From a virus (lineage: Duplodnaviria > Heunggongvirae > Uroviricota > Caudoviricetes), in the IMG/VR virus record IMGVR_UViG_2529293141_000015, positions 1,630-65,629 of that record: a stretch of DNA of 64,000 nt; one strand, 5' to 3'. This document shows, piece by piece, positions 3,001 to 6,000 of this stretch. Each line of letters starts with the position of its first letter. The stretch's first letter is position 1. The position numbers were made by a program.

Positions 3001-6000
3001 AATTTCGATCTGACAGTCTTGAAATATCCTGTAGCGTGCGGCGCATTTCTTCCGTCAGATGTTTGAAGGCGTTAAATTCAGCGACAGCGGCGTCAACGTT
3101 ATAGCCCTTGCTGTGTAGCTCGTTGAGGATGCGCATAGTTGGGCTTGGCATATCGAAGAGCACAGAAACGTCCAGGTTAAGAGTTTTTCGATCAACATAG
3201 CTCATCATGGAGTATGGGTGATGCTCAGAAAACCACGAGAGAGGGTAGTTGATAGACAGCGTTGATTCTGGAAGCTGAAGTTGTTCTGGAATTTTCTGGC
3301 TGAAATAGCAGTCTTCCAGTTTTTCGAACACCTCCCACGCCCGATCGGTTTCGAGCATTTTTGCGTGACGGGCAGCGCCGCGTTCTGTCCAGAGGATGAG
3401 GGAGCGAACGTTACGGGCGATTTTCACAGAGTAGTTAAAAGCTACTCTGTGCTTGAACTCACGTAAAGTTTCACCTTCAAGTTTGAAGAAGTGTTTTTCC
3501 TCAATGAAACGACCTTTGTTTTCGTGGTGATTCTGGCGAATACGAATAGCTTCTGTGCCGTAAAGGTGCGCCAAAAGTTCGGTAGTGATAACGGGGATCT
3601 GCTTGTAAGTAATCGTGGAGAGTGTTTCAACAGAAACTTGAGTTGTCATTATGACGCCCTCGAGTGGTTTCTAAACTATCACCACCGTTAGGTTCGAATC
3701 ATCGGGTGGTGAGACGTACAGGGTTCGAACTACCGGGAAACCAACCGGCGAGCTTTTCAGCTCCCCTATACGCCCCACCATAATTCAGATGTGCGCGTGC
3801 ATACGACAATAAAAAACACGCTCGCGGCGTGTCTCTGTCGCGGTTTCTATCCGGGGTTCGAATCCCGACGGTCAACTCGACCGTGCGAAGAATATAATCC
3901 CGGATATGTGTTGTCGTCAACAAGTGGCGTGCTATCATCGAATAGTGTTCTATCCTACTCAGTGAGGTTTAACATGCGTACAACCCAACAATTCAGCATT
4001 ACATTAACCAACGAAATGGCTGACATGGTGCGCGCCCGTGTGGCTTCCGGTGCATACGCTTCAGAAAGCGAAGTTATTCGTGAAGGGCTTCGTGCACTGA
4101 ATGAACGCGACAAAGCAATGGAAGCGTGGTTAATACACTCAGCCGCGCCGCCACTCGACGCTATTCGTGAGAACCCAGGCAAAGGGCACTCCATTTCACA
4201 GGTTCGCTCTGAGATTCGCGCCCGGAAGTAATCTGCATGGCATATGAAGTGCCACACTAACAAACTGCTCCAGGTATGGGAATAGTGTCACTTGCAGCAC
4301 CTATTAGAGATCCGATAATGAACATCATAGCAAGGTTCTTTTATTTGATAATTTTCTGCATGGCAACATCAGGATGCACTACCACTACGAAAATAAATCG
4401 CGGAGATGAAAAGGAACAGTACATCATTGCCTGTGGTGCCGCTACACCATGGGGAGTATGCTATGATAAAGCCAATGCCCTATGTAAAAATGGATATAAA
4501 GACATTTTAAAGGAACAGGGATTTAACAGGAAAGAATTAACCATTGAGTGTAAATAAGGCCATCATTTGCAACGTTGAAAAAATTCGCCCGTGCTACAGG
4601 GGAAAAAACTCCAGATCCGCTTCGTTTAACTACGAGGATTACCACTAATGGCGATGTTTACCCCCCCTCATCCCGGAGAAATTATTGCTGATATTCTGGA
4701 AGATCAGAATATTGGAATCAGGGAACTGGCAAGAGCGCTTGATGTCGCGCCTTCCACTGTTCAGCGACTGGTTTCAGGTAATGCGACAATATCTCCTGAA
4801 ATGGCTGTTCGTCTCGCTGCTGTCCTGGGTGGAACTCCGTCTTCATGGATTCGTCTCCAGACGGCATGGAGCCTTGAAAAAGCGGAAAGAGAAGTTGACG
4901 TATCTCATCTCTCAACAAAATACCGCCCGGCAGAAATTTCGCCTCATGCTTAACCACCGCGCCGTCATTCTGGCGGCGTCGGAGAGTGGAGGATATCAGG
5001 TTCCGAACTCTGCTTTGTTCTCCGCGTCCAGGATTTCTTCAATCTTCCGTACTCCCCGATTATTGTATCGGAAGCTTTCTACCTGCTTATCCGAATACGG
5101 GGATTTGTCGATGAACCATTTCCCGTATTGTTCTGTTTTGAGCATGTAGGTATTGGCAATGCGACCAACCTTGTTAGCGGATATTTTGAGTTGTGATCCA
5201 ACTTCTGACGCCGAATAGTAATGTTCATTGATCATCGGTAGCGGGATTACGTTAGCGCCTACAACGGGATTAACCAGGCTGGCGGCAACGACCTGTTTAG
5301 CTTCCGGTGCAAGGTTAGGGAGGAAGTCGAAGAGGTCCTTCATTGTGTCGACGGTCATTTTCAATGCGCGTGCCTTACGGAATTCTTCAAGGCCATCCGG
5401 TGATTTCTTCGTGGTGGTTTTTTGTTGCAACTGCTGTTGCATTGATTCCAGTTTATCGACCAGCGAACGACGAACGGCCTTCGACTCACGCGCGGCTACT
5501 CGCAGGGCTTGCTTGAAAGTCATTGTTATAACTTCTATTTCTGCGCCGTTTTTCTGACCTACGAAAATTTCGTAGGTCTCTCCTTCAAGCTCATCCTTAA
5601 CTCTGGCAATGAAATCATTATTGCGAACGGGCCTTTCACTACATAATTTCCGTGCCTCATTGACCATTTTCAACAGCATCTGGCTGTCGATTGTTGCAGC
5701 CGGAAACGAAGACTGATTTGCAATATTGTTAATCATGTATTCTGTCCTTTTCAGATAAAAGAAATCCCCGCGAGTGCGAGGAAGTCAATCACTGCCGATA
5801 TTCACCTTTATCGCGAACACCTTTACCGGTTTATCTCCGAAGTGTGTATGTGTGATTGTCTTGATTTCATACCCTTCATACGGGACGTCAATTCTGCGGC
5901 TGGAATCGTCGCGCTTCGGATATCCCTTTGTGATAATCAGACGGTCATATTCCCGGAACATAATTCGCTTATTCCAGTAGTCATTACACAGGCGATACTC

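What the first reader, a model, noticed from the sequence alone, without database searches (positions are those of the whole stretch)
3973..4953. Plus-strand island of two orphan antitoxin-like genes flanking a lipoprotein gene inside the leftward early operon
A ParD/RHH-type antitoxin-like gene and a HigA/YddM-like HTH antitoxin-like gene sit on the opposite strand to all surrounding early genes, separated by a small putative lipoprotein gene. Neither has a recognisable cognate toxin; only a 7-codon ORF (MAYEVPH-stop) follows the ParD-like gene. Phage-borne orphan antitoxins could neutralise host toxin-antitoxin abortive-infection systems, or the lipoprotein could be an unconventional partner or exclusion factor.
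Basis: partly seen in the sequence, partly recalled or inferred. Interest (0 to 1): 0.55.

Follow-up and report, generated by a model that had tools for sequence, protein, structure and literature searches.

The report
Toxin-less antitoxin relics flanking lipoprotein gene
This small plus-strand island in an E. coli lambdoid prophage is a patchwork left by repeated swapping of toxin-antitoxin cassettes: two antitoxin genes survive without their toxins, around an imported lipoprotein gene. It is an ordinary, already reported kind of genomic scar, not a new system.

Summary
parD (3974-4231) and higA (4648-4953) lie on the plus strand among minus-strand early genes, flank a lipoprotein gene (true start 4318, end 4557), and have no intact toxin. 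Both toxins have left remnants: the first 14 nt of parE (4237-4250) and the last 23 nt of higB (4626-4648).

Two more fragments lie between them. One is the 3' end of a BamE-like gene (4260-4307), imported with the lipoprotein gene from a P22-like phage locus. The other is the 3' end of an HTH antitoxin from a Gp49-HTH module (4560-4629).

Related prophages carry intact higBA, Gp49-HTH or parDE next to the same isrK/C4 flank. Two intermediates share the same junctions. The island is therefore a recombination scar at a hot spot for toxin-antitoxin cassette exchange.

The same two orphan antitoxins were reported in 2025 in phages phi346 and phi349, role unknown. None of the 42 E. coli genomes with the island has a related higB elsewhere, and 5 have a related parE. 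The lipoprotein belongs to a widespread family with no toxin-antitoxin link.

An anti-toxin counter-defence role is not excluded but has no direct support. Low interest.

The parts
3702..3884 (-). Left flank (context): C4 antisense RNA (3702-3785) and isrK sRNA (3811-3884), upstream of the ORF6N-domain gene at 2972-3649
   Evidence: Rfam gives C4 70.1 bits (gathering score 45) and isrK 53 bits (gathering score 50). Pfam ORF6N scores 1e-19. The same flank adjoins intact higBA (L002), Gp49-HTH (L004) and parDE (L053) cassettes.
3903..3922 (.). 20-nt core shared by cassette promoters. It holds the overlapping -35 hexamers of the divergent isrK and parD promoter-like sites and is the probable left crossover point.
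   Evidence: There is one match in the window against 0 expected. Exact copies lie upstream of the Gp49-HTH cassettes in L004, L005 and L017. The minus-strand promoter-like site TTGACG-18-TATATT (3920-3891) ends 7 nt before the isrK 5' end.
3911..3938 (+). Promoter-like site for parD: TTGTCG, 16-nt spacer, TATCAT, with a TG extension
   Evidence: The consensus scan found it. The sequence is conserved upstream of intact parDE in M8 and L053. Its function is inferred.
3974..4231 (+). parD, an intact ribbon-helix-helix antitoxin gene (85 aa) with a GAGG Shine-Dalgarno sequence
   Evidence: Family matches are. It is 95% identical at the protein level to the ParD of the intact L053 parDE. dN/dS against the M8 allele is 0.14.
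4237..4260 (+). parE remnant. The first 14 nt (4237-4250) are homologous to parE. The frame then runs into unrelated sequence and stops, giving MAYEVPH*.
   Evidence: Alignments to intact parDE of M8 and L053 break after ATGGCATATGAAGT. L053 ParE begins MAYEV.
4260..4307 (+). 3' remnant (16 codons plus stop) of a BamE-like gene, imported together with the lipoprotein gene
   Evidence: Window 4260-4564 is 84.6% identical at the nucleotide level to L006 4943-5245 and to L007, which are P22-like phage loci. The upstream L006 gene has a weak BamE match.
4318..4557 (+). Small lipoprotein gene (79 aa). It has a signal peptide, a lipobox cysteine at residue 20, Thr at +2 and four further conserved cysteines.
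   Evidence: The AlphaFold2 model has pLDDT 87.8. There is no Pfam, NCBIfam or PADLOC match. It is invariant in 8 island copies.
4560..4629 (+). 3' remnant of the HTH antitoxin gene of a Gp49-HTH module. In this window it is frameshifted by an extra G.
   Evidence: It is 94% identical to the end of the HTH genes in L004 and L005. The partner toxin matches Pfam Gp49. The G/A tract varies by indels among island copies.
4626..4648 (+). The last 23 nt of higB, which keep the higA Shine-Dalgarno sequence (GAGGA). The junction with the HTH remnant lies in a shared TTAACT.
   Evidence: Alignments to the intact higBA of G1/2 and to JNEC-KY176 show this.
4648..4953 (+). higA, an intact HTH antitoxin gene (101 aa)
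   Evidence: Family and structure matches are. The homologous stretch that begins at the higB tail (4626-5178) is 98.7% identical at the nucleotide level to the intact higBA locus of G1/2.
4953..4978 (.). Conserved GC-rich hairpin that forms the shared right boundary of the cassettes. The scan did not flag it as a terminator.
   Evidence: It is 96% identical to the sequence after the HTH gene in L004 and L005, and the alignment is. The terminator scan is negative for this site.

Best explanation
The island is a recombination scar at a prophage site where type II toxin-antitoxin (TA) cassettes are repeatedly exchanged, next to the isrK/C4 antirepressor-type module.

It is a mosaic of five sources: (1) the promoter, parD and first 14 nt of parE from a parDE cassette; (2) a 305-bp piece of a P22-like phage accessory locus, carrying the tail of a BamE-like gene and a complete lipoprotein gene; (3) the last ~70 nt of the HTH antitoxin gene of a Gp49-HTH cassette; (4) the last 23 nt of higB; and (5) a complete higA with the shared right boundary.

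Both toxin genes were removed by illegitimate or microhomology-mediated joins. This is the only viable order of TA decay: a toxin gene can be lost safely, whereas an antitoxin cannot be lost first. The two antitoxin genes therefore survive as harmless relics.

Inferred, not shown: parD, the lipoprotein gene and higA now form one operon driven by the autoregulated parD promoter, and each keeps its own ribosome-binding site. The lipoprotein, an envelope-directed accessory (moron) gene, is the most likely selected cargo. ParD acts mainly as the repressor of that promoter. There is no toxin activity and no addiction function.
For: Breakpoints. All breakpoints are defined by alignment: parE homology ends at 4250, the P22-like piece spans 4260-4564, the HTH remnant spans 4560-4629, and the higB tail starts at 4626.

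Intact cassettes next to the same isrK/C4 flank. higBA is present in G1/2, Gp49-HTH in NCTC9112 and parDE in L053.

Intermediates. JNEC-KY176 has Gp49-HTH intact, followed by the identical TTAACT junction to the higB tail and higA. L053 has parDE intact, followed by the higB tail and only 24 nt of higA.

Allele counts. In 5426 E. coli genomes, every one of the 42 orphan parD alleles lacks parE and all 323 other alleles have it.

Expression signals. No plus-strand terminator-like site lies inside the island, and the parD promoter-like site is conserved.

Variation. The lipoprotein is invariant in 8 copies. parD shows 3 nonsynonymous and 0 synonymous changes, all C-terminal. higA has a nonsense codon in 1 of 42 genomes. 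The pseudogene tract shows indels.

Lipoprotein family. It is widespread and lies in accessory loci of P22-like prophages with no TA link.
Against: Both antitoxin ORFs and their ribosome-binding sites are intact in nearly all copies: higA in 41 of 42 genomes, with PGAP naming the parD ORF a ParD family antitoxin in all 42. Orphan higA has persisted through at least two different rearrangements. These facts are also what selection for an antitoxin function would produce.

The island copies differ by less than 1%, so neutral decay and purifying selection cannot be told apart. Transcription as one operon and the activity of the promoter are inferred from consensus matches only. The function of the lipoprotein is unknown.
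Confidence: 0.7

Rival explanations
1. The toxin-less ParD and HigA are kept by selection as counter-defence or anti-addiction factors. On entry into a new cell the unrepressed parD promoter fires. The antitoxins then neutralise ParE-type and HigB-type toxins of resident prophages or host TA-based abortive infection, or they free the lysogen from addiction to rival prophages.
For: Both ORFs are full length, with their Shine-Dalgarno sequences retained even inside the 23-nt higB tail. The ParE partner of the closest intact allele is 92% identical to the ParE found in 323 of 5426 E. coli genomes, many of them STEC, so cross-neutralisation is plausible. Five of the 42 island genomes carry such a parE elsewhere. 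Orphan higA persists in two configurations. The concept is established for chromosomal CcdA and for phage Dmd (PMC7354431) and for orphan antitoxin-like enzymes that act against DarTG1 (PMC11825919).
Against: None of the 42 island genomes has a related higB, and that higB family occurs in only 22 other genomes. Thirty-seven of the 42 have no related parE. higA carries a nonsense codon in strain 2015C-3121. The only parD polymorphisms are nonsynonymous and lie in the C-terminal region, which established ParD-ParE structures identify as toxin-binding. The junctions show that orphan status arose as a by-product of deletions. The authors of PMC12502783 note that no classic antitoxin is yet verified in such a role and that DefenseFinder does not recognise these two.
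Confidence: 0.2
2. The antitoxins have been re-used purely as transcription factors. ParD sets the level of the lipoprotein operon. Because the -35 hexamers overlap, ParD may also modulate the divergent isrK/C4 antirepressor-type promoter, coupling the accessory island to prophage regulation.
For: The two promoter-like sites overlap at 3911-3920, and the minus-strand site ends 7 nt before the isrK 5' end. The first 50 residues of ParD, which cover the Pfam ParD/RHH match (residues 6-51), are 49/50 identical to paired alleles, with dN/dS 0.03. In two P22-like loci the homologous lipoprotein gene follows an unrelated Arc-type RHH repressor gene, once with a 4-nt overlap. Three different cassette types sit in the same divergent arrangement with isrK.
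Against: The shared 20-mer also precedes cassettes that have no isrK flank (L005, L017, M8), so it is not specific to isrK control. No operator was identified. High conservation of the N-terminal region is normal for paired ParD too. HigA has no obvious target here, because its own promoter was deleted along with higB.
Confidence: 0.15
3. The lipoprotein is a new kind of toxin or effector controlled by ParD and/or HigA, making the island a three-gene TA-like or exclusion module.
For: The lipoprotein gene sits between two antitoxin genes, in the position of the lost toxins. One homologue overlaps an upstream RHH gene by 4 nt.
Against: The adjacency is secondary. The gene came in with a fragment of its former upstream neighbour and is separated from parD by the parE stub and from higA by two further gene fragments. 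Homologues occur alone or among other small lipoprotein genes across Proteobacteria, with no ParD or HigA nearby. An exported, disulfide-rich lipoprotein is an unlikely target for cytoplasmic antitoxins (inference). PADLOC finds no match.
Confidence: 0.03

Closest known systems
parDE type II toxin-antitoxin modules (Caulobacter ParD1-ParE1, PDB 3KXE; prophage parDE of E. coli)
   Same: The ParD here is a full-length RHH antitoxin with the family's promoter region and gene order. It is 95% identical to the ParD of an intact module.
   Different: Only 14 nt of parE remain, so there is no toxin and no addiction or growth-arrest capacity.
higBA modules (Proteus vulgaris Rts1 HigB-HigA, PDB 4MCT/4MCX; E. 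coli CFT073 HigA, 2ICT)
   Same: HigA is full length and nearly identical (one amino-acid difference, N5T) to the HigA of an intact prophage higBA, whose HigB matches Rts1 HigB at 5e-31.
   Different: higB is reduced to its last 23 nt and the higBA promoter is gone. higA must be transcribed from upstream foreign sequence.
Orphan antitoxins as eroded TA loci or anti-addiction modules (chromosomal ccdA of Erwinia chrysanthemi; surveys in Klebsiella and E. coli)
   Same: These are antitoxin genes without toxins, next to recognisable toxin remnants. Surveys find this to be the commonest class of orphan (PMC7354431; PMC10790755).
   Different: Here two orphans from different families lie in a single phage-borne island around an unrelated gene. 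No cross-neutralisation has been shown.
Published description of this same pair in phages phi346 and phi349 (PMC12502783)
   Same: It is the same island (records PV189404 and PV189405). The authors report orphan ParD and HigA antitoxins of unclear relevance.
   Different: The passages retrieved from that paper do not mention toxin remnants, the extra fragments, the origin of the lipoprotein gene or intermediates. These were worked out here.
Phage morons and superinfection-exclusion lipoproteins (lambda bor, T5 Llp, phi80/N15 Cor; the P22 sieA/immI region)
   Same: The lipoprotein gene is a small accessory gene for an envelope protein, on the opposite strand, present or absent among related phages. 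In P22-like phages it lies between gene 16 and the tailspike gene, where P22 keeps sieA, mnt, arc and ant (the P22 map is from general knowledge).

Membership tests
parDE type II TA module | RHH ParD-family antitoxin | tested here: met
   Pfam PF03693 scores 32.1 bits (cut-off 21). TIGR02606 scores 53 bits (cut-off 46.2). phrog_6494 scores 2e-58.
parDE type II TA module | Adjacent ParE-family toxin gene downstream of parD | tested here: not met
   Only 14 nt of parE remain (4237-4250). The intact homologues are 99-103 aa.
parDE type II TA module | Autoregulated promoter upstream of the antitoxin gene | tested here: inconclusive
   A promoter-like site is conserved with those of intact modules. 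Neither binding nor activity was tested.
higBA type II TA module | HigA-family HTH antitoxin | tested here: met
   TIGR02607 (an equivalog model) scores 87.2 bits (cut-off 47.7). PDB 2ICP scores E = 4.7e-27.
higBA type II TA module | HigB toxin gene immediately upstream, overlapping the higA start | tested here: not met
   Only the last 23 nt of higB remain. The intact G1/2 HigB is 92 aa and matches PF05015 at 1.2e-21.
Orphan antitoxin acting in trans (anti-addiction or anti-defence) | No cognate toxin in cis | tested here: met
   
Orphan antitoxin acting in trans (anti-addiction or anti-defence) | A matching toxin present in the host or in competing elements | tested here: inconclusive
   A related parE is present in 5 of 42 island genomes and in 323 other genomes. 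A related higB is present in 0 of 42 island genomes and in 22 other genomes.
Orphan antitoxin acting in trans (anti-addiction or anti-defence) | Demonstrated neutralisation of a non-cis toxin | not testable with these tools
   This needs co-expression or infection assays.
Bacterial lipoprotein | N-terminal signal peptide ending in a lipobox with an invariant cysteine | tested here: met
   The N-terminus reads MNIIARFFYLIIFCMATSG|C. The cysteine is invariant in 36 homologues, most of which have L-x-G/A-C. The model shows an N-terminal helix. Lipidation itself was not tested.
Superinfection-exclusion lipoproteins (Llp, Cor type) | Sequence or fold similarity to a characterised exclusion protein | tested here: not met
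Phage moron (accessory cargo gene) | Presence or absence among otherwise collinear phages, opposite orientation, and foreign origin | tested here: met
   The gene is absent from the same site in G1/2. It lies on the plus strand among minus-strand genes. It is 84.6% identical at the nucleotide level to a P22-like phage locus.

The most novel reading that the evidence does not exclude
ParD and HigA are retained because the phage uses them as classic type II antitoxins in trans. The unrepressed parD promoter would give a burst of expression on entry, and the antitoxins would disarm ParE and HigB toxins of resident prophages or host abortive-infection modules. This would be the first verified case of ordinary cognate-type antitoxins serving as phage counter-defence. 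A lipoprotein exclusion factor would be co-expressed from the same operon.
Probability: 0.15. Interest if true: 0.65.

Novelty: already known. Interest (0 to 1): 0.22.

Why it matters
The direct importance is small. The result explains an annotation oddity that a 2025 paper had noted and left open. The two orphan antitoxins in a widespread group of Stx-converting-type phages of E. coli (O157:H7, O111:H8, O22:H8 and others) are relics of cassette turnover, not a designed pair.

It also documents, base by base, a hot spot next to the isrK/C4 antirepressor-type module where parDE, higBA and Gp49-HTH cassettes replace one another. It shows the expected direction of toxin-antitoxin decay: toxin first, antitoxin kept.

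If the minority reading were true, and the antitoxins are used in trans against rival toxins, it would provide a simple test case for antitoxin-based counter-defence in a medically relevant phage group.

Tried and rejected
- tRNA genes at 3660-3900: the GGTTCGAA motifs suggested tRNAs, but ARAGORN found none. The region is C4 plus isrK.
- ORF 4544-4648 as a longer higB C-terminal remnant: rejected. Only its last 23 nt are higB, and the rest is the HTH antitoxin remnant.
- Lipoprotein function from databases: there is no match in Pfam, NCBIfam or PADLOC. PHROGs places it only in families of unknown function.
- Related-locus scans for the lipoprotein: the 36-sequence alignment was too diverse to use. 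The single protein found only identical island copies in viral contigs and nothing in GTDB genomes. A 7-sequence alignment gave 33 loci.
- Selection test within the island lineage: copies differ by less than 1%, so the counts have no power (3 nonsynonymous and 0 synonymous in parD, one nonsense in higA).
- stx2 and stx1 peptide motifs: none found in the window. The label 'Stx-converting type' therefore rests on the near-identical island in named Stx2a phages, not on stx genes in this window.
- Lipoprotein as toxin partner: rejected on junction and context evidence.
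Full report
**What is there**

The window is a lambdoid E. coli prophage. Region 3650-5000 is 99.7-99.8% identical to named Stx2a-converting phages and to 42 complete E. coli genomes of several serotypes.

The ORF at 3974-4231 (+) is a ParD-family ribbon-helix-helix antitoxin. The ORF at 4648-4953 (+) is a HigA-family HTH antitoxin. Both score above the curated cut-offs. Between them lies a 79-aa lipoprotein gene (4318-4557). All flanking genes are on the minus strand. 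No toxin ORF is present on either strand.

**Both toxins left stubs**

Alignment with intact prophage parDE shows homology running through the promoter, parD and the first 14 nt of parE (ATGGCATATGAAGT, 4237-4250), then stopping abruptly. The comparison modules were E. coli M8 (87% nt identity) and the much closer L053 (ParD 95% aa identity). The 'MAYEVPH' mini-ORF is this stub read into foreign sequence.

Alignment with the intact higBA of E. coli G1/2 shows about 99% identity that starts only 23 nt before the higB stop codon (4626). The G1/2 module occupies the same position, between the ORF6N gene and the next leftward gene. The retained 23 nt include the higA Shine-Dalgarno sequence. G1/2 HigB and M8 ParE match their Pfam toxin families, and G1/2 HigB also matches the solved Rts1 HigB structures.

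**Two more fragments**

Bases 4560-4629 are 94% identical to the 3' end of the HTH antitoxin gene of a Gp49-HTH module. That module is intact in NCTC9112 and 2012C-4502. The join to the higB tail lies in a shared TTAACT.

Bases 4260-4564 are 84.6% identical to a locus of P22-like phages (L006, L007). They comprise the last 16 codons of a BamE-like gene, a spacer and the lipoprotein gene. This fixes the lipoprotein start at 4318. Nine unassigned bases (4251-4259) separate the parE stub from this piece.

**Hot spot and intermediates**

The left flank, C4 antisense RNA and isrK sRNA upstream of an ORF6N-domain gene, adjoins three different intact cassettes in other genomes. These are higBA in G1/2, Gp49-HTH in NCTC9112 and parDE in L053.

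A 20-nt core (3903-3922) is shared by parDE and Gp49-HTH cassette promoters, whatever their flank. A GC-rich hairpin (about 4953-4978) is the common right boundary.

Two intermediates exist. JNEC-KY176 carries Gp49-HTH intact, followed by the identical junction to the higB tail and an orphan higA. L053 carries intact parDE followed by the higB tail and only 24 nt of higA. The site is thus a graveyard of serial cassette replacements. The window's island is one outcome, in which both toxins were lost.

**Population data**

Among 5426 complete E. coli genomes, 365 carry this parD family. All 42 island alleles lack parE, and all 323 others have it.

I used queries that joined the lipoprotein segment to a toxin gene to ask whether island genomes hold a related toxin elsewhere. 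Five of 42 hold a related parE. None holds a related higB, and that higB family occurs in only 22 other genomes.

Among 8 island copies the lipoprotein gene is invariant. parD has three substitutions, all nonsynonymous and C-terminal (N67K, P68L, K85N). higA has one nonsynonymous change, two synonymous changes and one nonsense change (G10*). The HTH remnant shows tract-length indels. The nonsense allele is present in 1 of 42 complete genomes.

Orphan parD against the paired M8 allele gives dN/dS 0.14, so most of that divergence predates orphaning. Divergence within the island lineage is below 1%. These counts fit relaxed constraint but cannot exclude selection.

**The lipoprotein**

Only three close clusters exist in the 5.8-billion-protein set. 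An exhaustive search found 129 representatives, mostly 70-100 aa. In the 36-sequence alignment the lipobox cysteine is invariant and four further cysteines are conserved.

In enterobacterial P22-like prophages the gene lies between gene 16 and the tailspike gene. It is sometimes directly after an Arc-type repressor gene and sometimes among other small lipoprotein genes. Elsewhere it is chromosomal across Proteobacteria. None of the loci examined has a ParD, HigA or toxin gene beside it.

The AlphaFold2 model is confident (pLDDT 87.8), but its small beta-beta-alpha-beta-beta fold has no informative match. I read it as an envelope-directed accessory (moron) gene, possibly for lysogenic conversion or exclusion. 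That function is an inference.

**Likely working**

A conserved sigma-70-like site (3911-3938) precedes parD. No plus-strand terminator-like site lies inside the island, and each gene keeps a ribosome-binding site. I infer one parD-lipoprotein-higA operon, autoregulated by ParD, with no toxin and hence no addiction or abortive-infection activity.

The -35 hexamer of this site overlaps that of a divergent minus-strand site, which ends 7 nt before the isrK 5' end. Cross-talk between the two promoters is conceivable but untested.

**Comparison with what is known**

The same two orphan antitoxins were reported in phages phi346 and phi349 in 2025, and their role was left open (PMC12502783; same island). 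Genome surveys find orphan antitoxins abundant (E. coli, PMC10790755). A Klebsiella survey reviewed in PMC7354431 found that a high percentage are remnants of degraded modules. Anti-addiction and phage antitoxin mimics are established concepts (PMC7354431; PMC11825919).

The island fails the defining test of a TA module, a toxin gene, for both families. It fits the known category of eroded TA loci combined with a moron. The new information here is the detailed reconstruction, not a new kind of system.

**Verdict**

- The 'orphan antitoxin' description is right.
- The 'unconventional partner' idea is rejected.
- The counter-defence idea is unproven, with an estimated probability of about 0.15-0.2.
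- Interest is low (0.22).

Noticed in passing
window 3702-3884 (-) and 15096-15283 (-): There are two copies of a C4 antisense RNA plus isrK sRNA module. Each lies upstream of an antirepressor-type gene: the ORF6N gene at 2972-3649 and the Rha/Ash-family gene at 14394-15179. The two proteins share a similar C-terminal half. Each module borders accessory cargo, the TA-relic island in one case and a restriction-modification pair in the other.
   Followed up: partly
window 15797-18216 (-): A BsuBI/PstI-type restriction endonuclease gene (Pfam 4.6e-61) lies next to an Eco57I-type methylase gene. Together they form a likely prophage-borne restriction-modification system beside the second isrK/C4 module.
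   Followed up: partly
window 7191-8374 (+): An IS3-family insertion sequence has two ORFs (HTH_Tnp_1, then rve integrase core). It sits on the plus strand inside the minus-strand early region. The annotation of the close relative L001 lists no transposase in the corresponding stretch.
   Followed up: partly
window 1399-1462: A perfect 9-nt tandem repeat (7.1 copies) encodes (PVQ)n inside the DUF1627-related ORF at 1256-1654 (-). It may be length-variable.
   Followed up: no
window 24683-24896 (+): There is a strong match to the sRNA family STnc100 (198 bits).
   Followed up: no
window 1-64000: ARAGORN found no tRNA genes, and no Stx1 or Stx2 A/B peptide motifs were found, although the island is near-identical to that of named Stx2a-converting phages. 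The window may be an stx-negative relative, or it may end before the stx region.
   Followed up: partly
window 4661-4667 and 4598-4608: Homopolymer tracts lie at codons 5-7 of higA (C7 here; A followed by C6 in relatives) and in the HTH remnant (G4A6). The second tract varies by single-base indels between island copies.
   Followed up: partly
L006 4625-4990; L020 and L021 about 2670-4090: In P22-like prophages of Buttiauxella, Leclercia and unnamed hosts, the lipoprotein homologue sits in a cluster of several small lipoprotein or secreted-protein genes between gene 16 and the tailspike gene. One of these genes has a BamE-like domain.
   Followed up: partly
L053 1178-1253: A metagenome-assembled relative has intact parDE followed by the higB tail and only the first 24 nt of higA. 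At this site either partner of higBA can be the one truncated once another cassette is present.
   Followed up: yes
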